A stretch of 64,000 bases of DNA from Chloroflexota bacterium (GCA_018648325.1 JABGRK010000009.1:141969-205968); one strand, 5' to 3'; shown: positions 26,265 to 45,274, numbered from the stretch's first letter. Notes: generated by a model from the sequence alone, not told the origin. Made by a program: numbers and translations.

Positions 26265-27312
26265 TTACGCCCACTCTTTTTCAAACAAAGCCTTCATTTC
26301 AATCTTATTGGCCTCAGGCATAAATGAGGCCTCAATGCCGTTCATACTTATCTGTTTCAGGTCATCAACGGTAAAACCCAATCGCTTAACCAGTGTCAGA
26401 TATTCATCGTTCATAGATGTATTAAACATGGCAGGATCATCAGAGTTAACAGTAACCATCAGCCCATCATCGAAGTACTGTTTTATGGGATGAGACTTAA
26501 TCGATTCACAAACACCGGTTCTGATGTTACTGATGGGACACATCTCCAGAGGAATACGTTTTTGCTTGAGCAATGCAACCAGTTCGGGATCTTCGTTAGC
26601 CCGCATGCCATGACCGATGCGCTCCACTCCCAGCTTACGTACAGCGCCCCATATCGACTCAACGCCCGCAAACCTCACCGGCATGCGCACTAAGCCTGTA
26701 TCCAAGCTCTTTGGCCCGCCTATATACGCCTGCATACGGTCCAGGCGGATGGTGCTGCTCGCTGCCGCCGATGGTAATTCCGACCAGTCCCTTGTCCAGA
26801 TAAGGCGACAGCTCCTCTATTCGCCGCATACCTATTTCCGGGCCATGGTCCCGTATGAGGTCCACGATAAGCGCGCTTTTTATGCCGAAGTCCGTATACG
26901 CTCTTTGCTTGCCCTCAATAATGCACTCGGTGATCTTCTGTGGAGGAAACCCCTTTCGCTCCGACGGAGCACCGTGTCTCCAGTAATCGCCGGGCGAATA
27001 GGTTAGTTCGGCATACTTAACGTTTTGCCCATGCAGGTCCCGCAGCACATCATAAGTTATCTGCTCAAAATCATGCTCCGATGTAATAAAGGTGTTTTTC
27101 CAGACCCACAGCCTGATGAAATTGTCAAAGTCTGTATAGGTAAACCTGCGTCGCAGGTCATCGACAGTGTTGATTTCCGGCTCCGTGCCCTTTTTCTTGA
27201 TAAGGCTCAGCAGTGTATCCAGAGGGATGGCTCCCTCCATGTGAAGGTGAAGTTCCACCTTGGGCATCTGCCGAATGAGCTGGGCTACCTGAGTACTAGC
27301 CTGCATACGCAC
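26265..27312 (-). pseudogene. add: adenosine deaminase split by +1 frameshift (ORFs 26659..27312 and 26265..26735); likely single-nt indel in a GGG run
   Basis: …VELHLHMEGA…SAHAGEV | …[18 protein letters not shown]…; removing one G restores …[15 protein letters not shown]…. Confidence 0.75.
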
Positions 27313-33092: not shown

Positions 33093-33377
33093 ATGGCATT
33101 CGAAGAAAAAACCCTAGCTTGTGTCGAGTGTGGAGCCGATTTCCCGTTCACCGCTGAAGAGCAGGAATTCTACCAGTCTAAAGGCTTCGAAAACGAGCCC
33201 AAGCGCTGCCAGCCATGCAGACGCGCACGCAAACAGCGTGTAGGCGGACCTCGCCAGATGCATGCAGCCGTATGCGCCAAATGTGGCAAGGACACCGAAG
33301 TACCGTTCGAGCCTCGCGAAGGCAGACCGGTATACTGTAGTGATTGCTACAGCCAGCAACAGACAAACAGATACTAG
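33093..33377 (+). CDS. zf-trcl-type probable zinc-ribbon protein
   Basis: CVECGADFPFTAEEQEFYQSKGFENEPKRCQPCR…CAKCGKDTEVPF…CSDCY. Confidence 0.6.
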   Translation: MAFEEKTLACVECGADFPFTAEEQEFYQSKGFENEPKRCQPCRRARKQRVGGPRQMHAAVCAKCGKDTEVPFEPREGRPVYCSDCYSQQQTNRY

Positions 33378-33457: not shown

Positions 33458-33985
33458 TTACTGCTGATCACCTGCGTTGGGCGGATTTTTCTTAAGCCAA
33501 GATGCCATCACCAGCAGGGTTGAGGCAAACGCGCCGGTAAGGAACAGCGGGTACAGTATCGCCGAGACCTCGGTCAAAGTGGCAGTTGGGGTGCTGTAAA
33601 CTATACGCAGTACCAGAACAGCAATGAACAACCCAATGCAAATAACCGCGGTATAGCGTAGCACATCAGCAATGCCCACCCCAAACAATGTCTTGGAAGC
33701 GTCATTCTTCACAATATATGAGAGCCCATACAAAAGAATGCCGGTAAAAATAACAACCTGAATACCGTTAAGGGCAATTGTCACCGTTTCCTCTATTGGA
33801 GCAGAAGGATCCGCAGTTACAGTACCCGCAGTCATCAATGCCACGACGACCACTCCAATGCCCGTAACCGTAACAGCCAGAAACTGCAACAACATCTGAT
33901 AATTACTCATAAAAAAACCTCCTTCATCAATACATTGACTAGTATCACGTATTATAGCAGCAGATAGACAGTTGTCAAGATACAA
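33458..33985 (-). CDS. membrane protein (4 TM)
   Basis: hydrophobicity. Confidence 0.45.
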   Translation of the reverse strand: MYLDNCLSAAIIRDTSQCIDEGGFFMSNYQMLLQFLAVTVTGIGVVVVALMTAGTVTADPSAPIEETVTIALNGIQVVIFTGILLYGLSYIVKNDASKTLFGVGIADVLRYTAVICIGLFIAVLVLRIVYSTPTATLTEVSAILYPLFLTGAFASTLLVMASWLKKNPPNAGDQQ

Positions 33986-33996
33986 ACGTGCTCATT

Positions 33997-34689
33997 TTAT
34001 AGCCTAGTGAATGTAAATGTGCCCAATCTGGCCACCGTCTGATTGTGAAGAAAAGGATCGCCTGCTATTCTATACATAACCTGTGCCGGATTAGTAACGC
34101 TGTTTGCCGAGCTATAGATTGTACCACTATCCGTTCCTGCATCATATGGATACAGATCAATGGTAATGCTATCAATCCAAACACCGTCCTCTCTCAAATC
34201 AAGCGACGATACGCCAACAAACCAGTCCGGGCTGGGCGCGATCATGGAAACCAGTGACACCAACGGATAATCACTGCTGACGGTGAAGTTCAGGCTTACT
34301 GTGCCCGGTGATGTGCCTATACCTCCACCCGACATCTTCACCCCAGCGTTTCCGCCAGCAATCAACTGATCTATCTCTGTATTAAGCGGATCCTTGCCGC
34401 CGGTTTCAGCCATCTTCTTTATACCCGGCGAGGCAAGCTGACCCGTTTGCCATATATTAACCGATGAGTTATGCGTAACCCCAATCAATCCCGAAAAATG
34501 AGGACGATCCGGAAAATCGTCAGGGTGAGTGGTAGCACTCCAGGTGCTATTGAAATCCACCCGGTAGGTTGCATCTGCAAGAGGTTCTTTTTGTCCGCAC
34601 CCCATACCTGCTAACAACAAAGATGTAAGCATCAAAAAAGGCATTATGATAACTACTGCTTCAATACGCATGATTCCCTCCTGAGCCAT
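33997..34689 (-). CDS. Spondin_N-domain secreted lipoprotein
   Basis: …IAPSPDWFVGVSSL… hallmark of spondin N domain; signal peptide. Confidence 0.6.
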   Translation of the reverse strand: MAQEGIMRIEAVVIIMPFLMLTSLLLAGMGCGQKEPLADATYRVDFNSTWSATTHPDDFPDRPHFSGLIGVTHNSSVNIWQTGQLASPGIKKMAETGGKDPLNTEIDQLIAGGNAGVKMSGGGIGTSPGTVSLNFTVSSDYPLVSLVSMIAPSPDWFVGVSSLDLREDGVWIDSITIDLYPYDAGTDSGTIYSSANSVTNPAQVMYRIAGDPFLHNQTVARLGTFTFTRL

Positions 34690-34785
34690 TGCTTGTTCCA
34701 GTCTACACCATCAAAGCAAATTAATAATGCAACACTACATAGACCCTGATCCAGCCAACCAATATGTCACATAATAACATTACGG

Positions 34786-34815
34786 TTGACCATAACCCAC
34801 CTTTAATGCGATACT
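34786..34815 (+). promoter_or_regulatory. promoter TTGACC-N18-GATACT
   Basis: near-identical to element at 38913..38941. Confidence 0.45.
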
Positions 34816-34860
34816 ATGTAGCGTTGCAATAAACCATTTTTAAGCAAATAGGAGAGATGA

Positions 34861-35358
34861 ATGTACTGTCCCAAATGCGGTAGCCAGGCAACGGACGGCA
34901 ATGCCTTCTGCATCCGCTGTGGAGCACCAATGTCCGGTCATGTATATCCAACAAATGCATACCCAGCGCGAGAAGGACAAGCATTGCAGACATCGCTACC
35001 AAACCGGAACGGATTACTTACCGCTGGTGCAGTATTGCTATTCGTCTCAGGTGGAATCGGCTTACTATTCTCAATAGGCGTAATTCTTTTGGCATCCCTT
35101 TTTATGACTGATATTACATATGGCTATACCAGCGCGGTTGACATCGTTTATCTGATCATGGGACTAGTAGTATTAGTGCTGTCTGTTCTGGCTATACTCG
35201 GCGGTATAAAAACACTGCAAAGATCAAGCTTCGGCTGGGCACTTGCCGGAAGTATTTGTGGAATTATCGCCACTTGGTGGATGTTGGGAATACCCGGTAT
35301 AATAGCCTGCGTTTTCATCGCCATATCAAAAAAAGAATTCGACGCACAACCACAATAG
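34861..35358 (+). CDS. N-terminal zinc-ribbon + 4-TM membrane protein (family member 1)
   Basis: MYCPKCGSQATDGNAFCIRCG…; C-term …GIKTLQRSSFGWA…ISKKEF. Confidence 0.6.
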   Translation: MYCPKCGSQATDGNAFCIRCGAPMSGHVYPTNAYPAREGQALQTSLPNRNGLLTAGAVLLFVSGGIGLLFSIGVILLASLFMTDITYGYTSAVDIVYLIMGLVVLVLSVLAILGGIKTLQRSSFGWALAGSICGIIATWWMLGIPGIIACVFIAISKKEFDAQPQ

Positions 35359-35385
35359 CAACATACAAAAATGAAGGAGATATGC

Positions 35386-35910
35386 ATGTACTGCTCCCGA
35401 TGCGGCAGCCAGACAGAAACCAATGCTGCCTTCTGCCATCGCTGTGGATCACCCTTGTTCGGGTATATATATCCAACGCATAAGGCAGCGCAACCAAAAC
35501 GCAACGGCATTCTTATCGCAGGCGCGGTACTATGCCTGGTCTCCGGGGGAATTGGCATTTTAGTCGGTTTTTTCTTGGTGCTTGGAGGATTGTATTATAT
35601 GTATACAGACTTCTCCTATGACTTGTCAGTAACCGGCTTCGAGGAGATGATTGGTGCCACTTATCTGACCATAGGAATCATAGCAATAGTGTTCTCAGTG
35701 CTAGCCATCTTCGGCGGTATAAAGACACTTAAAAAATCAAGCTTCGGCTGGGCCATTGTAGGGAGCATCGGCGCAGTTTTTGCCAGTTTCTGGCTGGTTA
35801 TGATACCCGGCATAGTGGCCTGTATTTTCATCATCATGTCAAGGAAAGAGTTCTATAACAAACCGGAGCAACCTGAAACAGGCGTAGAGCAAAACAACGT
35901 TATACATTAA
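35386..35910 (+). CDS. zinc-ribbon + TM protein (family member 2)
   Basis: MYCSRCGSQTETNAAFCHRCG…GIKTLKKSSFGWA…MSRKEF. Confidence 0.6.
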   Translation: MYCSRCGSQTETNAAFCHRCGSPLFGYIYPTHKAAQPKRNGILIAGAVLCLVSGGIGILVGFFLVLGGLYYMYTDFSYDLSVTGFEEMIGATYLTIGIIAIVFSVLAIFGGIKTLKKSSFGWAIVGSIGAVFASFWLVMIPGIVACIFIIMSRKEFYNKPEQPETGVEQNNVIH

Positions 35911-35928
35911 AAAAGAGAAGTGCAACCC

Positions 35929-36597
35929 TTATCTCAAAACAAGTGCGTAACCCATGATCAGAAGCAGTAGACCTGCAAGCGTTATAATCTTGGCATATCT
36001 GTCAAGAGTATCCACATCCTTCGATGCAGCCCACGCAGTGCGGGGATTTTGACTGATCCGTTCAAAGTACTTAGCTGCCCAATCCTTGAACCAAAACCCA
36101 TACCCTGCTACGGCAAATATGCTGATGGCTGAAACAAAAAATATATGCACAGCCCAACTCGCCGCAAGTATCAGCCCAACAATGAAAAGCAGGCCGCAAA
36201 ATACCAGCACACCATAGTATATTTGACATACGCGCTCCGACATCCCCGGTTCCAGCACCGCTCGCCCCGGCATTTTCGGGTCATAGTAGACATTGACATC
36301 AGATCCGTTGGTATACTTGTCGATGGCAAGTTGTTCGCGCGCTAAAGGACCGTAGCCACGCCACGCCGTAATCCTGTCCGACTTGTGCATCACACCGTTT
36401 ACACTGTAGTCATATACCACCCTAGCCAAATACATCTTCTCCAGATCCTGATCCACTTTCTCTTCGATGCGGGAGAACACTACAACCCCCGGTACAACAG
36501 GCCAGTCCTGTATGTCCTTAGACTTGCGCAGAAGTATGCATATCACCGCTACGATAATCAAGCTGCAAGCTACAAAAATAAGCCCCGGCGTTTGCAT
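35929..36597 (-). CDS. DUF3592 membrane protein
   Basis: …VPGVVVFSRIEE…YLARVVYDYSVNGVMHKSDRIT…VNVYYDP…. Confidence 0.55.
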   Translation of the reverse strand: MQTPGLIFVACSLIIVAVICILLRKSKDIQDWPVVPGVVVFSRIEEKVDQDLEKMYLARVVYDYSVNGVMHKSDRITAWRGYGPLAREQLAIDKYTNGSDVNVYYDPKMPGRAVLEPGMSERVCQIYYGVLVFCGLLFIVGLILAASWAVHIFFVSAISIFAVAGYGFWFKDWAAKYFERISQNPRTAWAASKDVDTLDRYAKIITLAGLLLLIMGYALVLR

Positions 36598-36708
36598 GAT
36601 TCATATCCCCACTGTCTCACTATGCACAGTGAATGATAGCAAAAATATGCTATAATGTCCAATATAATACCACGGAACATTATGTACACCTCTAGCGTCT
36701 AAGTATAT

Positions 36709-37224
36709 ATGGAGCATAGCTTGAAAAAATACATTCCTATTTTAGCGATAGCGATCTTCTTTACACTGACTCGGCCTATTTACGCCAATCCCATCAGTGT
36801 CCCAAGTGTGTATAATATGAAAAATATAACCTTGCCTGTAACTTATATCATACTGGTAATTTCGCCGTTCATAGAATCACTCATTATCACCATCACTCTG
36901 AAGTGGAAGGGCAATGATTGGTATAACCTGCCATTATTATATTGGCCTATAATCCTGATCAATGCCATCACCCTCACCCTCACTCAAATACTAGCGATTG
37001 GGCTTCGATCGTGGACAAGCAATCAAAATTATATTTACCTTGCCGAAATTTTCCCGCTTGTTTCAGAATATTTTCTACTCAGATGGTTATTCACAAGGTT
37101 ATATAAACAAGATAGACTCACTAAACCTCTATCCAACAAATCGGTTGCCCTAATAACTGTAGTAGCAAATCTAATAACACTCAGTTTAGGGATGATTTTA
37201 ATCTTAGTAGAGAATCTTGGATAA
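36709..37224 (+). CDS. membrane protein
   Basis: hydrophobicity. Confidence 0.4.
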   Translation: MEHSLKKYIPILAIAIFFTLTRPIYANPISVPSVYNMKNITLPVTYIILVISPFIESLIITITLKWKGNDWYNLPLLYWPIILINAITLTLTQILAIGLRSWTSNQNYIYLAEIFPLVSEYFLLRWLFTRLYKQDRLTKPLSNKSVALITVVANLITLSLGMILILVENLG

Positions 37225-37340
37225 TAAACGCGAAAATCGATATACCTAAACAAACCTCTTTACTCTCATCATATAACGGATTTCCCAGCAACATAGAACA
37301 TTTTGGGTAGTTTTGACGTATATATATGTAGAGGGATGTT

Positions 37341-37694
37341 TTGGTATCACTAACACATTCGTTTAAAGAACATAAGCGCCTCTGGATTTACCGGGTGGAG
37401 GTCTTTCTAGTGCTGGGCATATTCAGCATGGGCATCGGCAGAACACCCGTCTCCATCCACACCAGCGACCTCACTTACCATCCGAACTGGCTGCTCAACC
37501 GCTTCCTGTGGCTACCCTATTGGGGCAGTGGCGATATGCTCTGGGAGCTGGAGAACCTGAATTTTCTGGGCGTTAGCGGACTCATACTTCCAGCCATACT
37601 CACTATACTGTGGTGGATATTTATCTCTTTTGTCAGCTTCAGCATTGCTTTTCGGCTATACGGTTACATCAAAACCAGAGTGCTAAAACTATAA
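37341..37694 (+). CDS. small membrane protein
   Basis: hydrophobicity. Confidence 0.35.
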   Translation: MVSLTHSFKEHKRLWIYRVEVFLVLGIFSMGIGRTPVSIHTSDLTYHPNWLLNRFLWLPYWGSGDMLWELENLNFLGVSGLILPAILTILWWIFISFVSFSIAFRLYGYIKTRVLKL

Positions 37695-37733
37695 TAAATA
37701 CCCGCCCTCTTCTCGATTACAAACGCTTATACG

Positions 37734-38258
37734 CTAGTGCATCTGGCAGCACTCAAGAAAATCGTTCAATTGATTGTACTGACCTGCAATATACGAGCCC
37801 ATCTTGAAGGCAGCAATCGACTGTTTTGTATCATCGCCAAACATACTATCCCTTGCCACTCTTGCCACACTCAAAAGCCTGCCCGATGAACTACCGGCAC
37901 TCATTTCCTGATCATAATCGTTGTAACAGGCAGCAACAAATCTGAGCCATCCCATGTAATCACATTCATCCCCGCGTATACTCTTATCATAGACCAGGCG
38001 GTGGAACAGCTGCATACAACCAAACAAACCGTTCCACCCCTGGAGCCGTGACTGGCAAGTGCTTACCACCAGCCACATATTTAAAACCAGCAAAAGCTGG
38101 TGTGCGCTAAAGTAATCCTGCCTGTCATCAATATCAAAAGCCAGCTCCCCTACCACCTTGTTGATCTGCGGGCCCTCCACGCAACGTGCGACCCAGTGGA
38201 AAAGCAGGTTTGCCAGCTCTTCTATCGCCAAATGTATACTAGTCCGGTTCATGGCCAC
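37734..38258 (-). CDS. hypothetical protein
   Basis: ORF only. Confidence 0.35.
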   Translation of the reverse strand: MAMNRTSIHLAIEELANLLFHWVARCVEGPQINKVVGELAFDIDDRQDYFSAHQLLLVLNMWLVVSTCQSRLQGWNGLFGCMQLFHRLVYDKSIRGDECDYMGWLRFVAACYNDYDQEMSAGSSSGRLLSVARVARDSMFGDDTKQSIAAFKMGSYIAGQYNQLNDFLECCQMH

Positions 38259-38444
38259 CTCCTTGAAATCAAGGTGAACTTGTGTACTATGCCCGGTTAC
38301 TATTTTTGCATCGGCACTGTATATAAATATTTTTCTTGTCGGGCGTTATATATACCACTAACATAAAACTTTGTCAATATCTATGAGATATAACAAGTCT
38401 CCTAATGAAGAGAAAAGAGGGGAAGAGAGAGAATTAAAAACAGA

Positions 38445-38885
38445 CTAGCCAAATTTCCTGCGCCATCCTACGCACAGGTACATTAGCGAAAAAATGAAAA
38501 AGAATACCAACAGTCCCAGGAAAAGATATGCAGATACACTAGGCTTGACCTGTACAGTCACACCAATAGCAGAGTATGCACCCCAAATAACAGCTGGCAG
38601 ATACACGCTTAAGGCCACCGCCGACATTAAAGCTCCGATCCCGCTGCCAATAACAGGCTTCCTGATAACCACTAAAGGACTAAATACAAACAGAGCAACA
38701 ATCGACACTGCCAGCATCCGAAGCCAAAGGTATCCATTTCCGTTTTGCAAAGCCTCTATAGCAGAGGTAAGGAATATTGCAACGCCGCATGTTAAATAGA
38801 TCGTATTTGCACCAAACTCCTTTTTCGACTTGCCTTGCGATGTTTCCATGTCCACAATAATACCTCTACACTTAACAGACGTCAA
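38445..38885 (-). CDS. membrane protein
   Basis: hydrophobicity. Confidence 0.4.
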   Translation of the reverse strand: MTSVKCRGIIVDMETSQGKSKKEFGANTIYLTCGVAIFLTSAIEALQNGNGYLWLRMLAVSIVALFVFSPLVVIRKPVIGSGIGALMSAVALSVYLPAVIWGAYSAIGVTVQVKPSVSAYLFLGLLVFFFIFSLMYLCVGWRRKFG

Positions 38886-38912
38886 TAATGATTGCTATTA
38901 TATGACAAGCCA

Positions 38913-38941
38913 TTGACTACCACCTCGATTGATGCGATACT
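38913..38941 (+). promoter_or_regulatory. promoter TTGACT-N17-GATACT
   Basis: shares …CACCT…ATGCGATACTA(CA/TG)TAG with 34786..34815. Confidence 0.45.
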
Positions 38942-38977
38942 ACATAGAAAGAAGATTGCCTTCAGATAAGGAGAAAT

Positions 38978-39544
38978 ATGTACTGTAAAACATGTGGGGG
39001 GCAAAACAACGACAATGCCGATTATTGCGTAACCTGTGGCGCAAAACTGACTTCGGCAGCTGCGCAGTATGAAGGTCATACTACGGGAACAGGTGGACCG
39101 GCATTCAGGCAGCGCCATGGTTGTCTGACTGCGTACCTTGTTGTGATATTAATTCTTTACTCTCTCAGCCTACTCATAACACCAATATCCTTAGCCTCAC
39201 GAGATTTTTTCGAGCAAACATATCCGGAATACGCAATAGCTGCTAACTGGTCAACATGGGTCAGTTTGGTGCTCAACGTTGCTATAATCGCCTTTGCTGT
39301 TGCCATTTTCAAGTGGAAGAAATGGGCGGTCTATGGATTCATCGTTGCATTTGCCATCCAGTCTATTGTAGGCATCAGCAACACCAGCAGCATAGCGGGC
39401 ATGCCTGGTATTACCGACGACATAGCTTCGATTGCCACAGCCATCACCATAGTCGCATCAATCATAGTCTATGTCCTGATAATCGGCTTGTTCATAGTGT
39501 CTCTCAGAATGGGCAGGCCCAGCGGCTGGAACCAGATGGATTAG
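38978..39544 (+). CDS. zinc-ribbon + TM protein (family member 3)
   Basis: MYCKTCGGQNNDNADYCVTCG…. Confidence 0.55.
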   Translation: MYCKTCGGQNNDNADYCVTCGAKLTSAAAQYEGHTTGTGGPAFRQRHGCLTAYLVVILILYSLSLLITPISLASRDFFEQTYPEYAIAANWSTWVSLVLNVAIIAFAVAIFKWKKWAVYGFIVAFAIQSIVGISNTSSIAGMPGITDDIASIATAITIVASIIVYVLIIGLFIVSLRMGRPSGWNQMD

Positions 39545-39564
39545 AAGATATATAAGGAGAGTAC

Positions 39565-39768
39565 ATGTACTGTGAAAAGTGCGGAACGCATATCGAAAAC
39601 GCAAGCGCCGAATTTTGCTTTAAATGCGGAACCACACTGGCAAAAGTGTCAGGCCAATCCCCCACGCCAACTACACAACAGGCTGGCTCGCCTGCTGCTG
39701 CGCCCGTCCCGGAAACCTCGTTTAGTGTTGACTCAGCTCCGGTGGTATATCCTCAAACTCTTTTTTAG
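39565..39768 (+). CDS. zinc-ribbon-only family member with Pro/Thr-rich tail
   Basis: MYCEKCGTHIENASAEFCFKCG…. Confidence 0.4.
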   Translation: MYCEKCGTHIENASAEFCFKCGTTLAKVSGQSPTPTTQQAGSPAAAPVPETSFSVDSAPVVYPQTLF

Positions 39769-40057
39769 ATAGAACGATCAATATAAGCGCAAACAACCCA
39801 AAGAGCATACCGCTTACTAAACTACAAATGCCACCAAAAAGGATCGCCAGCTTATAATTTTCACCCTTGAATACAAAGCGGCGCGCGCCCCAGATAGAAC
39901 CAATACCAGCTATAAGAACAGCCACTCCCGTTATATGGTCCCACGTGCTGTACCTGTTCCATCCCAGAAATATAAATCCGGCAATTGCCAAACCCAATGC
40001 CCCGGAAAATACAGCCAACACTCCGGCAGCGCCTATATTATCACGTCCGTATGCCAA
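39722..40057 (-). CDS. TM-only relative of the zinc-ribbon/TM family (opposite strand, 3' overlap with 39565..39768)
   Basis: C-term …LSKKEFEDIPPELSQH parallels …ISKKEFDAQPQ / …MSRKEFYNKPEQ. Confidence 0.45.
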   Translation of the reverse strand: MAYGRDNIGAAGVLAVFSGALGLAIAGFIFLGWNRYSTWDHITGVAVLIAGIGSIWGARRFVFKGENYKLAILFGGICSLVSGMLFGLFALILIVLSKKEFEDIPPELSQH

Positions 40058-40229
40058 TGCAGTTACCCACTCTATCTAATCAGTCAAAGAATATTAACTC
40101 ACTTGCACATACTCGGTCAACCACAAAATCATGTAATTGTCACAACAACCCAATCCTGAGCAATACATACTAGAGAACAAAAACCTTCCCCTCAAGCCAA
40201 ACCCATAGTATAATAGCGCAAAGATATTC

Positions 40230-43898: not shown

Positions 43899-44297
43899 AT
43901 GAACAGCACAGACAAACTGAAATGGACAGCACGCGCGTATTACATAGCGGCAATACTCAGCCTGGCGGGGATTTGTCTCTTTTTAGCCTTCTACGATATC
44001 AGACCCAATATGAGGTTTAACGAAGGACCGCTTATATTTCTGGCAATCTTTGGCACAATCATGCTTATAGGCGGCTTTATTTCGTGGTTTTCCCCATCGA
44101 ATGGAGGCATACTTACGTTAACCATCACCCCACTGGTATTGCTTTTCTTTATGGGTGCATTGTGCGGATGGAGCCCACATGGCTCGTTTATATTTGTCCT
44201 GCCCCCTTTTGTGCCTATGTTCGTCAGCGGCATACTGCACATCAGGCTGAACAATCGTCTCAACCATAAAAATGAAGCATTACATGAAACGCTCTAG
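43899..44297 (+). CDS. membrane protein
   Basis: TTGACT-N18-TATAAT promoter upstream; hydrophobic. Confidence 0.4.
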   Translation: MNSTDKLKWTARAYYIAAILSLAGICLFLAFYDIRPNMRFNEGPLIFLAIFGTIMLIGGFISWFSPSNGGILTLTITPLVLLFFMGALCGWSPHGSFIFVLPPFVPMFVSGILHIRLNNRLNHKNEALHETL

Positions 44298-44367
44298 CCC
44301 AACATATCGAACTTTTTATGCTAATAAGGGCTATATATATAGTAAGGACGCAAGGAGCTAGCAAGGC

Positions 44368-44913
44368 TTGACAGAAACGACGAAGGTGCAGGACTTCGAG
44401 CAGGTCTTTCACCAATACAAAGGCTGGGTATACAAAACAGCCTACCTGATAACGGGCGATCATCAAAAAGCAGAGGACGTTATGCAGGAAGTCTTTATAA
44501 GCGCATATAAATTTTCAAACACGTACGACGCCAGCAAAGGCAGCTACACCAACTGGTTGCGCCGTATCACCGTAAACCAATGCACAAGGAGCAGTCGCAG
44601 AAAAATCCTACCATCATCTTCTATCGAAGAGATGCAGGATAACGGCCATGGTATATCGGACAACAGTATGCCCGTAGATGAGCAGGTGTTGCTTACAGAT
44701 CAGATCAGCCGCCTCCTAAAATCTCTTGACAACAAGTACCGTGCCGTACTCATCCTGCGATTCTATGAGGACCTGTCATATGCCGAGATCGGCGATATAC
44801 TCCATATACCGCTGGGAACGGTCAAATCGCGTATACACATGGCCATCAGCACACTGCAAAACGGCCACCAAACTACCGAGCAAAAGGAAACAACATATCA
44901 TGAACTGCGATAA
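44368..44913 (+). CDS. ECF-type RNA polymerase sigma factor (sigma-70 regions 2 and 4)
   Basis: …DVMQEVFISAYK… / …LSYAEIGDILHIPLGTVKSRIH…. Confidence 0.8.
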   Translation: MTETTKVQDFEQVFHQYKGWVYKTAYLITGDHQKAEDVMQEVFISAYKFSNTYDASKGSYTNWLRRITVNQCTRSSRRKILPSSSIEEMQDNGHGISDNSMPVDEQVLLTDQISRLLKSLDNKYRAVLILRFYEDLSYAEIGDILHIPLGTVKSRIHMAISTLQNGHQTTEQKETTYHELR

Positions 44914-45274
44914 CATGAAACAACTACTAATAAGCTACCACAATAATGAGGTCGATCCCGGCGAGCCCGATGCTATAAAGGCTCATCTGGAAACATGTCC
45001 TGATTGCCAACTCGAACACCGGTCGATCATAGACGTGCAATCGAAGTTCAAGCAGGTGCTGAGCACCACTGCCGAGTTGGTCTCGCCACCACCGGACGCA
45101 TGGCTGGCTATTCAGGGGCGTTTGGATCCTAACCGCAACCGCTTTGCCGGTCTAACAGAGCGAATAGCCAGAGCAACACGCAACTTCCTTGATACGCCTG
45201 TGTGGCAAAAAAGGCTGGTCGGCTCGCTTACAGCACTAACCACTCTGGCGTTAGTGGCAACGGTTATTCTGTAG
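44900..45274 (+). CDS. zf-HC2 anti-sigma factor (overlaps sigma gene by 14 nt)
   Basis: …AHLETCPDCQLEH…. Confidence 0.6.
   Translation: MNCDNMKQLLISYHNNEVDPGEPDAIKAHLETCPDCQLEHRSIIDVQSKFKQVLSTTAELVSPPPDAWLAIQGRLDPNRNRFAGLTERIARATRNFLDTPVWQKRLVGSLTALTTLALVATVIL

What the first reader, a model, noticed from the sequence alone, without database searches (positions are those of the whole stretch)
34780..40060. Expanded paralogous family of N-terminal zinc-ribbon + 4-TM proteins with duplicated promoters, including split ribbon-only and TM-only members
Three genes (34861, 35386, 38978) encode MYC(P/S/K)(K/R/T)CG…C..CG zinc ribbons followed by four TM helices, with a conserved GIKTL(Q/K)(R/K)SSFGWA…(I/M)S(K/R)KEF module. 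A fourth ORF (39565) has only the ribbon and a Pro/Thr-rich tail. A convergent overlapping ORF (39722..40057, minus) has only the TM module (LSKKEFEDIPPELSQH). The promoters of 34861 and 38978 are nearly identical (TTGAC(C/T)-N17/18-GATACTA(TG/CA)TAG), showing recent duplication. DUF3592 and several small membrane proteins are interspersed. The function is unknown. The architecture (cytosolic ribbon, membrane module) and the local expansion resemble membrane-anchored anti-sigma, sensor or receptor families.
Basis: seen in the sequence. Interest (0 to 1): 0.5.

Follow-up and report, generated by a model that had tools for sequence, protein, structure and literature searches.

The report
Zinc-ribbon-tagged small tetraspan membrane proteins
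A marine Chloroflexi genome carries several small membrane proteins built from a cytoplasmic zinc ribbon and two different, uncharacterised four-helix membrane modules; this is a real but fairly ordinary piece of genomic dark matter, not an anti-sigma or sensor system.

Summary
All five ORFs exist at the stated coordinates, and all four ribbons are CX2C-X10/11-CX2C. Only A (34861), B (35386) and the minus-strand E (39722-40057) share the GGIKTL…SKKEF membrane module. C (38978) has a different membrane domain, at best remotely related.

The A/B/E module belongs to a large uncurated family: 2,171 clusters at 50% identity. Every hit that carries an organism name is from Dehalococcoidia or Chloroflexota. 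Most members are stand-alone proteins of 110-150 aa. About 8% carry an N-terminal zinc ribbon or B-box, and about 17% are tandem fusions. E is therefore the usual form of the family, not a split fragment.

The family scores below Pfam thresholds. It repeatedly gives weak hits to DUF4064, Claudin_2 and Tetraspanin.

The two promoters share only about 23 nt (TTGAC-N17/18-ATGCGATACTA). That core is also kept before the C orthologue of a genome whose C protein is only 45% identical. This points to selection and possible co-regulation, not recent duplication.

I found no sigma partner, no sensor or output domain, no conserved neighbours and no inversion scars.

Best guess, at low confidence: AuxB-like membrane adaptors that self-associate. 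Interest is low to moderate.

The parts
34786..34815 (+). Promoter-like site of the A-B pair: TTGACC, 18 nt, TG-extended GATACT (core ATGCGATACTA).
   Evidence: It ends 45 nt before the A start codon. The site comes from consensus matching plus conservation; transcription was not measured.
34861..35358 (+). A: 165 aa. N-terminal CX2C-X10-CX2C zinc ribbon, a roughly 25-aa linker, then the tetraspan 'SKKEF' module.
   Evidence: Zn_Ribbon_1 31.8 bits. Independent family HMM E=1e-29. AF2 pLDDT 77.5 with helices 51-83, 92-120, 124-137 and 144-155. 100% identical to an NCBI 'zinc ribbon domain-containing protein [Chloroflexi bacterium]'.
35386..35910 (+). B: 174 aa, paralogue of A with the same architecture. 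It starts 27 nt after A's stop, behind an AGGAGA ribosome-binding site, so it is probably co-transcribed with A.
   Evidence: 47% identity to A, E=2e-55. Independent HMM E=2.9e-28. Sequence read.
38913..38941 (+). Promoter-like site of the C-D pair: TTGACT, 17 nt, TG-extended GATACT (core TGATGCGATACTA).
   Evidence: The orthologous promoter in L049/L050 keeps TTGACT-N17-…TGATGCGATACT.
38978..39544 (+). C: 188 aa. The same type of ribbon, fused to a different four-helix membrane domain (family KQRHGCLTAYL…FKWKKWG…GWxQLE).
   Evidence: Only the ribbon aligns with A. No hit with the A-family HMM. It has its own family, with ribbon-fused (186-197 aa) and membrane-only (125-135 aa) members. hhalign to the A family gives probability 83% over TM1-TM2. 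The AF2 model is weak (pLDDT 64) and shows full-length TM3 and TM4.
39565..39768 (+). D: 67 aa. Ribbon (CX2C-X11-CX2C) plus a Pro/Thr-rich tail. It starts 20 nt after C's stop behind an AAGGAGAG site. Its last 15 codons are antisense to the 3' end of E.
   Evidence: (Zn_Ribbon_1 23.5 bits, below the cut-off). Its closest match is the N-terminus of a ribbon-fused A-family protein, P0075 (47% over 43 aa). Whether D is translated or functional was not shown.
39722..40057 (-). E: 111 aa, a stand-alone member of the A/B tetraspan family. TTG start, weak ribosome-binding site. A TTGACC-18-TAATAT promoter-like site lies at 40120-40091.
   Evidence: Independent HMM E=1.3e-11 over model positions 14-124 of 135. 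Best relatives are stand-alone proteins such as P0119. Promoter-like site.

Best explanation
What it is (well supported). Two short, probably co-transcribed gene pairs (A-B and C-D) and one stand-alone gene (E) sit in a marine Chloroflexi genome. They encode small inner-membrane proteins assembled from three mobile parts:
1. A 24-residue cytoplasmic Cys4 zinc ribbon.
2. A tetraspan module of about 120 aa (A, B, E). It has two long Gly-rich helices joined by a variable outer loop, a fixed 7-residue basic inner loop, an uncharged 26-residue helical hairpin with a conserved Pro in the turn, and a juxtamembrane S-K-K-E-F tail.
3. A second, different four-helix module (C).

The A/B/E module is a large uncurated family. 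It is a remote relative of DUF4064, which the AuxB paper places in Pfam's tetraspanin clan, and it gives similarly weak hits to Claudin_2 and Tetraspanin.

How it most likely works (inferred). These are non-enzymatic membrane adaptors like S. aureus AuxB. The helical bundle self-associates and binds partner membrane proteins within the bilayer. The cytoplasmic face (basic loop plus S-K-K-E-F tail, and the zinc ribbon where present) recruits or stabilises cytosolic partners. The ribbon serves as a structural zinc-stabilised interaction knob, as in L. lactis Llmg_0524/0526, rather than as a sensor.

The A-B and C-D pairs share a conserved extended -10 promoter type and are probably co-regulated.
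For: Shown:
- Family membership of A, B and E with an independent HMM.
- Family size of 2,171 clusters at 50% identity with E<=1e-3, 928 of them at E<=1e-10.
- Every hit that carries an organism name is from Dehalococcoidia or Chloroflexota.
- Layout from 124 aligned single-domain members. The inner loop is always 7 aa, with 2.8 Lys/Arg and 0.08 Asp/Glu on average. The hairpin (11+3+12 aa) has almost no charged residues (means of 0-0.02 per segment). Gly76, Gly104 and Phe118 are invariant, Glu117 is 95% conserved, and the transmembrane helices hold almost no Lys, Arg, Asp or Glu. This pattern fits packing and binding, not catalysis or ion conduction.
- AF2 gives a four-helix bundle (pLDDT 77.5).
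- 27 of 157 representatives are 2-3-fold tandem fusions, as expected for a protein that works as a dimer or oligomer. 12 of 157 carry an N-terminal zinc domain of at least three kinds: single ribbon, double ribbon and B-box. The zinc domain is therefore an optional add-on.
- Pfam hits below threshold fall on DUF4064, Claudin_2 and Tetraspanin. The family consensus scores 22.5, 21.4 and 17.5 bits against them.

Literature:
- DUF4064 is assigned to the Pfam tetraspanin clan. AuxB has four helices with its C-terminus inside, forms homodimers, binds PknB through its membrane domain and binds GpsB through a short cytoplasmic motif. It showed the same 3-TM versus 4-TM prediction ambiguity (PMC12505970).
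[quoted passage not shown] The motif binds zinc stably and appears to be structural (PMC4628341).

Promoter:
- The motif occurs twice in the window against 0 expected.
- It is kept before the C orthologue of a relative.
Against: - No partner protein has been identified. Seven look-ups of relatives show no conserved neighbour.
- The link to DUF4064 is below Pfam's curated threshold for every sequence tested.
- The C-in, four-helix topology rests on a model and on charge counts. A three-helix reading with the tail outside is not excluded.
- Much of the shared promoter core matches generic sigma-70 and extended -10 consensus positions. Only about three shared non-consensus bases are specific, so the evidence for co-regulation is modest.
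- Zinc binding, expression and operon structure were not measured.
Confidence: 0.4

Rival explanations
1. Membrane-anchored anti-sigma factors or signal sensors/receptors. The cytoplasmic ribbon would hold a sigma factor or regulator, and the membrane part would sense a signal.
For: The general shape fits: a cytoplasmic Cys-rich N-terminus plus a membrane anchor. An ECF sigma gene lies 4.3 kb downstream.
Against: - Pfam gives Zn_Ribbon_1, not zf-HC2, and a 24-aa ribbon has no room for an anti-sigma domain.
- The nearby sigma factor (44368-44913) is followed by its own zf-HC2 protein.
- The outer loop is 8-14 aa in A and B and varies from 6 to 48 aa across the family, with no conserved residues.
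- Most family members lack any zinc domain.
- Relatives are never next to sigma or regulator genes.
Confidence: 0.04
2. Immunity or protection proteins. The cluster of diverse small membrane proteins in a variable region would neutralise membrane-targeting toxins, bacteriocins or phage.
For: - The region between the conserved zf_Tbcl gene and the 37734/C pair differs in the syntenic relative L049, which lacks A, B, DUF3592, D and E.
- Several unrelated small membrane proteins are packed here.
- C-family genes form tandem arrays in L051.
- DUF4064 proteins occur in the S. aureus ess (type VII secretion) locus (PMC4788903).
Against: - No toxin, secretion-system or bacteriocin gene lies in or near the cluster.
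- There are no PADLOC hits.
- Family members in other genomes are single genes among housekeeping genes.
- GC content is not unusual, no tRNA gene lies anywhere in the window, and no integrase turned up in the gene and Pfam lists for the flanks.
Confidence: 0.12
3. Small oligomeric channels or pores (holin-like or claudin-like), formed by the Gly-rich helices and the re-entrant hairpin.
For: - The helices carry glycine-zipper-like spacing, and Gly76, Gly77 and Gly104 are invariant or nearly so.
- The short hairpin with a conserved Pro resembles re-entrant pore loops.
- Tandem fusions imply oligomers.
- There are weak hits to Claudin_2, and very weak ones to a holin family.
Against: - The membrane segments hold almost no Lys, Arg, Asp or Glu.
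- The claudin W-GLW-C-C loop signature is absent.
- The outer loop is not conserved.
- No lysis or transport genes lie adjacent.
Confidence: 0.08
4. D and E are the two halves of a former A-type gene that was split when its membrane-coding segment inverted. This could even be a reversible switch.
For: - The geometry matches a simple inversion. D has a ribbon and a linker, then runs straight into the antisense 3' end of E.
- D's best match is the N-terminus of a ribbon-fused family member.
- E has a TTG start and a weak ribosome-binding site.
Against: - There are no inverted repeats at the presumed junctions. The only pair is 10 nt long and lies inside E.
- No recombinase turned up in the gene and Pfam lists for the flanks.
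- Two contigs whose DNA I compared, from different samples, are 99.97-100% identical across D/E in the same orientation, and a third contig's gene list shows the same order.
- E looks like a normal stand-alone member, and its closest relatives are stand-alone proteins.
- Convergent genes with overlapping ends are common.
Confidence: 0.07

Closest known systems
DUF4064 (PF13273), characterised through S. aureus AuxB (PMC12505970)
   Same: - It is a small bacterial membrane protein with four helices, both ends inside the cell, and a short basic inner loop followed by a conserved aromatic residue.
- It showed the same 3-TM versus 4-TM prediction ambiguity.
- AuxB is known to self-associate; self-association is inferred here from the tandem fusions.
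- It is among the best Pfam matches of the family: consensus 22.5 bits over model positions 3-97 of 102, best single member E=1.8e-7.
   Different: - Every sequence tested scores below the gathering threshold (32.1 bits), and A itself gives no hit.
- TM3 and TM4 here are only about 11-12 residues each.
- The S-K-K-E-F tail and the zinc-ribbon or B-box fusions are not AuxB features.
- AuxB's GpsB-binding SRQAKY tail, GpsB and PASTA kinases belong to Bacillota and were not seen here.
- Named members of this family are from Chloroflexota, not Bacillota.
[quoted passage not shown]
   Same: - The Cys spacing at the extreme N-terminus is identical, followed by membrane helices.
- Two such genes sit in one operon, as in A-B and C-D here.
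- Zinc binding was shown experimentally for those proteins, and the ribbon is thought to be structural or to mediate interactions.
   Different: - Those proteins have one or two predicted helices and unrelated downstream regions.
- Their function (cell-wall integrity) was shown only in Lactococcus.
Eukaryotic claudin/PMP22 and tetraspanin families (PF13903, PF00335)
   Same: - They share a four-helix topology with both ends inside and a larger first outer loop.
- They give repeated weak Pfam hits: Claudin_2 in 7 of 75 members (best 1.8e-5) and Tetraspanin in 2 of 75.
- They act as scaffolds rather than enzymes.
   Different: - The scores are below threshold.
- The claudin loop signature and disulfide are absent, and there is no large second loop as in tetraspanins.
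- The outer loop here is short and variable.
- Structure searches give no specific match.
Zinc-binding anti-sigma factors (zf-HC2, PF13490)
   Same: They have a Cys-containing cytoplasmic N-terminus and a membrane anchor.
   Different: - The zinc motif differs (H-x3-C-x2-C within a helical anti-sigma domain).
- They are co-transcribed with an ECF sigma factor.
- Neither feature is present here.

Membership tests
Pfam Zn_Ribbon_1 (PF13240) | Four Cys arranged as CX2C, about 10 residues, CX2C, at the N-terminus. | tested here: met
   A, B and C have CX2C-X10-CX2C. D has X11.
Pfam Zn_Ribbon_1 (PF13240) | HMM score at or above the gathering score (25 bits). | tested here: inconclusive
   A scores 31.8 and B 28.9, so both pass. 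C scores 19.4 and D 23.5, so both fall below.
Pfam Zn_Ribbon_1 (PF13240) | Zinc is actually bound. | not testable with these tools
   Shown only for the analogous motif in Llmg_0524/0526 (PMC4628341).
Uncurated 'SKKEF' tetraspan family (defined here, alignment A4) | Full-length match to a family HMM built without the window sequences. | tested here: met
   A 1e-29, B 2.9e-28, E 1.3e-11. C gives no hit.
Uncurated 'SKKEF' tetraspan family (defined here, alignment A4) | Signature GG…(R/K)R(R/K)x(F/W)G…LAG.IC…P…G…F…(S/G)(K/R)xEF. | tested here: met
   Present in A, B and E, with minor substitutions in B and E. Absent from C.
DUF4064 (PF13273) | HMM score at or above the gathering score (32.1 bits). 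| tested here: not met
   A: no hit. B: 15.2 bits. Family consensus: 22.5 bits. The three family members scored individually reached 14.7-28.4 bits. The best E-value among the 75 members scanned was 1.8e-7.
DUF4064 (PF13273) | Four helices with the C-terminus inside the cell. | tested here: inconclusive
   AF2 gives four helices, the last two only 12-14 residues long. The charge distribution favours a C-in topology, but the tail is net neutral.
Claudin/PMP22 (PF13903) | HMM score at or above the gathering score (29.1 bits), plus a conserved first-loop motif with paired Cys. | tested here: not met
   The best score is 28.0 bits, in a tandem-fused relative; the consensus scores 21.4. The first loop is 6-48 aa and unconserved, and in A it is 8 aa without Cys or Trp.
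Zinc-binding anti-sigma factor (zf-HC2, PF13490) | A zf-HC2 anti-sigma domain. | tested here: not met
   No zf-HC2 hit for A-D at E<=0.1.
Zinc-binding anti-sigma factor (zf-HC2, PF13490) | An adjacent, co-transcribed ECF sigma gene. | tested here: not met
   The nearest sigma gene (44368-44913) has its own zf-HC2 partner. None lies next to relatives.
C-type membrane family (alignment A5) | KQRHGCLTAYL…FKWKKWG…GWxQLE over the full length. | tested here: met
   C matches P0271-P0274 at 41-49% identity over 100% of its length, and matches the membrane-only proteins P0275-P0279.

The most novel reading that the evidence does not exclude
The conserved promoter type TTGAC-N17/18-(A/T)(A/G)ATGCGATACT marks a small regulon of zinc-ribbon-tagged tetraspan proteins in marine Chloroflexi. 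These proteins would be the counterparts, in this monoderm phylum, of AuxB-like or tetraspanin-like membrane organisers. They would form homo- and heterodimers (A with B, and ribbon-bearing with ribbon-less forms such as E) and dock cytosolic partners through the ribbon and the invariant S-K-K-E-F tail. The same pentapeptide also occurs at the N-terminus of the unrelated neighbouring membrane protein F.
Probability: 0.12. Interest if true: 0.5.

Novelty: new variant of a known kind. Interest (0 to 1): 0.25.

Why it matters
If the reading holds, a family of more than 2,000 sequence clusters has no curated model. So far it is named only from Dehalococcoidia and Chloroflexota, an abundant but poorly cultured group. 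It would be added to the bacterial branch of the tetraspanin-like superfamily, whose only studied bacterial member (AuxB) organises cell-envelope enzymes. That gives a concrete, testable starting hypothesis for many 'hypothetical' small membrane proteins: self-association, partner capture in the membrane, and docking through a cytoplasmic tail or ribbon. The practical outputs here are a family definition, a topology model and a candidate shared promoter. None of this is surprising enough to change current views.

Tried and rejected
- **Other libraries.** NCBIfam and PADLOC scans of all cluster proteins gave nothing except the spondin domain of the neighbouring gene 33997-34689.
- **Gene neighbourhoods.** Look-ups of five A-family relatives found no recurrent partner. 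The two C-family look-ups showed only C-specific neighbours. A methyltransferase next to one relative is only 25% identical to the window's methyltransferase.
- **Collection scans.** The genome and metagenome scans were driven by the MYCPKCGS pattern. They returned generic ribbons fused to many unrelated proteins and no new A-family member. Alignments A4 and A2 were too diverse for the locus finder.
- **Same-strain contigs.** Five contigs carrying A are 99.97-100% identical to the window, so they carry no comparative signal.
- **Inversion test.** No junction repeats were found. E versus P0075 and D versus P0075 were not decisive.
- **Taxonomy.** Cluster look-up of ribbon-fused relatives returned no organism names.
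- **Rfam and tRNA scans.** Nothing was found in the window.
- **Rejected ideas.** Anti-sigma or sensor; defence system; mobile island (normal GC, no tRNA in the window, no integrase in the gene and Pfam lists for the flanks).

Full report
**Source**

Protein A is 100% identical to an NCBI protein named 'MAG: zinc ribbon domain-containing protein [Chloroflexi bacterium]'. It occurs on at least 20 contigs, including GCA_018671315.1 and a 549-kb JGI contig. Five contigs I fetched are 99.97-100% identical to the window, so they represent the same population. The window has no tRNA genes and no Rfam matches. GC content in the region is 0.44-0.46, against 0.42-0.52 across the window.

**What is at the coordinates**

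The ORF list confirms:
- A: 34861-35358+, 165 aa
- B: 35386-35910+, 174 aa
- C: 38978-39544+, 188 aa
- D: 39565-39768+, 67 aa
- E: 39722-40057-, 111 aa, TTG start

A, B, C and D each begin MYCxxCG and carry four Cys. The spacing is CX2C-X10-CX2C in A, B and C, and X11 in D. Pfam Zn_Ribbon_1 scores are 31.8, 28.9, 19.4 and 23.5 bits against a cut-off of 25. Each is preceded by a strong AGGAG-type site. B starts 27 nt after A, and D starts 20 nt after C. No terminator-like site was found on the plus strand. A-B and C-D therefore look like two-gene operons; this is an inference. D and E converge and overlap by 47 nt. The interspersed DUF3592 gene is confirmed (E=3.4e-12).

**One membrane module or two**

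- A and B are 47% identical over their whole length (E=2e-55).
- A and C align only over the ribbon and linker.
- A weakly matches E's C-terminal half (E=2e-4).
- Searching with A found mostly membrane-only proteins of 117-138 aa that share RSGLLTAGGVL…AILGG…RRSFGLSLAGAICA…FVSLSKKEFE. One of them has a B-box in place of the ribbon.
- An HMM built from 72 such proteins, with no window sequence included, scores A at 1e-29, B at 2.9e-28 and E at 1.3e-11 over the whole module. It hits nothing else in the six-frame translation of the window, C included.
- C has its own family, KQRHGCLTAYL…FKWKKWG…GWxQLE. That family also exists both as ribbon fusions (186-197 aa, 41-49% identity) and as membrane-only proteins of 125-135 aa.
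- Profile-profile comparison of the two families gives probability 83% over TM1, the loop, TM2 and the basic loop. This suggests remote common ancestry but is not secure for membrane proteins.
- C's AF2 model is weak (pLDDT 64) and has full-length third and fourth helices, unlike A.

**The A/B/E family**

A profile search of 1.84 billion cluster representatives finds 2,171 proteins at E<=1e-3 and 928 at E<=1e-10. In the annotated search, every hit that carries an organism name is from Dehalococcoidia or Chloroflexota, and all are called hypothetical.

Of 157 representatives:
- 129 are single modules.
- 27 are two- or three-fold tandem fusions.
- 12 carry an N-terminal zinc domain: single ribbon, double ribbon or B-box.

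The membrane-only form (E) is therefore the norm, and the ribbon is an optional addition gained several times.

Alignment of 124 single-domain members gives a fixed plan:
- a basic N-terminus
- TM1 of 24 aa
- an unconserved outer loop of 6-48 aa
- TM2 of 23 aa ending in an invariant GG
- an inner loop of exactly 7 aa, with 2.8 Lys/Arg on average and almost no Asp/Glu
- a segment of about 26 aa with almost no charged residues, split by a conserved Pro (91/124) and containing Cys95 (104/124) and invariant Gly104
- the tail (S/G)(K/R)xEF, with Phe invariant and Glu at 95%

AF2 models A as a ribbon, a disordered linker and four helices (51-83, 92-120, 124-137, 144-155) with pLDDT 77.5. The last two helices are too short to span a bilayer individually. 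A helical hairpin with both ends inside is the most economical reading, but a three-span topology is not excluded.

**Relation to known families**

- No family member I scored individually reaches a Pfam gathering score for its membrane part.
- The recurring sub-threshold hits among 75 members are Claudin_2 (7 members, best 1.8e-5), DUF4064 (6 members, best 1.8e-7) and Tetraspanin (2 members).
- The family consensus scores 22.5, 21.4 and 17.5 bits against these three, with cut-offs of 32.1, 29.1 and 32.1.
- According to PMC12505970, DUF4064 belongs to Pfam's tetraspanin clan.
- Its one studied member, S. aureus AuxB, had the same 3-TM versus 4-TM prediction ambiguity. It was shown to have four helices with the C-terminus inside, to form homodimers, to bind the PknB transmembrane helix through its membrane domain, and to bind GpsB through a short cytoplasmic motif.
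- Structure searches were uninformative, as was a PDB sequence-profile search.
- For the ribbon, the closest studied analogues are L. lactis Llmg_0524 and Llmg_0526. These are two membrane proteins with an N-terminal CX2CX10CX2C motif, encoded in one operon. The motif binds zinc stably and is thought to be structural rather than sensory (PMC4628341).
- Genome and metagenome scans show that MYCPKCGS-type ribbons are fused to a very wide range of unrelated downstream regions. The similarity among the four ribbons here is therefore mostly family consensus.

**Promoters**

- TTGAC-N15-20-TGCGATACTA occurs twice in the window, before A and before C, against none in 100 shuffles.
- The upstream regions do not otherwise align. 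The best local alignment is a 23-nt core, CCACCT…TT(A/G)ATGCGATACTA, reached by 14 of 2000 shuffles. This is not the signature of a recent duplication.
- A syntenic relative (L049/L050) is informative. Its aminotransferase is 76% identical, zf_Tbcl 79%, the 37734 orthologue 55% and the C orthologue 45%. It keeps TTGACT-N17-…TGATGCGATACT 37 nt before its C orthologue.
- From my own knowledge, TTGAC, the TG extension and most of the -10 hexamer are generic sigma-70 features. That leaves only about three shared non-consensus bases.
- I read this as a selected promoter type and possible co-regulation, with modest confidence.

**The D/E pair**

The geometry matches what an inversion of the membrane-coding part of an A-type gene would leave. 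It is also simply a convergent gene pair. Against an inversion:
- No junction repeats were found.
- No recombinase turned up in the gene and Pfam lists for the flanks.
- Two contigs whose DNA I compared, from different samples, are 99.97-100% identical across D/E, and a third contig's gene list shows the same order.
- E's nearest relatives are stand-alone proteins.

The relative L049 lacks A, B, DUF3592, D and E altogether. This part of the locus is therefore variable between lineages.

**Function**

The following all argue against an enzyme, a sensor or an anti-sigma factor:
- The conserved positions are mostly Gly, Ala and hydrophobic residues.
- There is a basic inner loop and a conserved cytoplasmic tail.
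- Tandem fusions are frequent.
- The outer loop is not conserved.
- There are no conserved neighbours.

They fit a self-associating membrane adaptor in the manner of AuxB and the tetraspanins. This is an inference by analogy, and no partner is known. Rival readings (immunity protein, small pore, inversion-split gene) are listed with their evidence. None has direct support: PADLOC and NCBIfam gave nothing.

**Verdict**

- The anti-sigma/sensor interpretation is not supported.
- The object is an uncurated family, a new variant within a known superfamily, combined with a common zinc ribbon.
- Interest is low to moderate.

Noticed in passing
window 38445-38855 (-), residues 9-13: The pentapeptide S[KR]KEF occurs only four times in all six-frame ORFs of the window, against about 0.04 expected. 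Three are the C-terminal tails of A, B and E. The fourth is at the N-terminus (METSQGKSKKEFG…) of an unrelated four-helix membrane protein lying between the 37734 gene and C.
   Followed up: partly
window 37734-38258 (-) and 38978-39544 (+); L049 7672-8187 (-) and 8425-8985 (+): The soluble 172-aa protein of unknown function (55% identical orthologue) and C form a divergent pair that is conserved in a related genome. In the window, the extra membrane gene 38445-38855 sits between them.
   Followed up: partly
L051 3-158, 180-704, 738-1337 (+): Three C-family genes lie in tandem on one short metagenomic contig. Two of them are ribbon-fused.
   Followed up: no
window 26265-26735 (-) and 26659-27312 (-): Two overlapping ORFs both hit the adenosine deaminase family (PF00962). 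This looks like one gene split by a frameshift or an assembly error. The same split is called on several contigs.
   Followed up: no
window 33978-33951 (-): A perfect TTGACA-16-TATAAT site with a TG extension lies just upstream of the small membrane protein gene 33458-33910. It shows that the canonical consensus is used in this genome, so the GATACT -10 of A and C is a deviation.
   Followed up: no
window about 43900-45274 (+): A DUF7670 gene, an ECF sigma factor (44368-44913) and an overlapping zf-HC2 anti-sigma gene form a complete sigma/anti-sigma unit 4.3 kb downstream. It appears unrelated to the ribbon genes.
   Followed up: partly
window 33093-33377 (+); L049 4313-4603; L047 10156-10464: A small zf_Tbcl zinc-finger protein is 79% identical in the relative L049. 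One also lies near a stand-alone family member in L047. This is probably coincidence.
   Followed up: no
P0131 (240 aa, metagenomic): One family member combines a B-box, a TM2-domain-like segment (…GVDRFYLG…) and the tetraspan module. This illustrates how freely these small membrane modules are recombined.
   Followed up: no
family alignment, model position 95 (Cys133 in A): A Cys inside the third helix is conserved in 104 of 124 members but replaced by Gly in B. Its role is unexplained.
   Followed up: no
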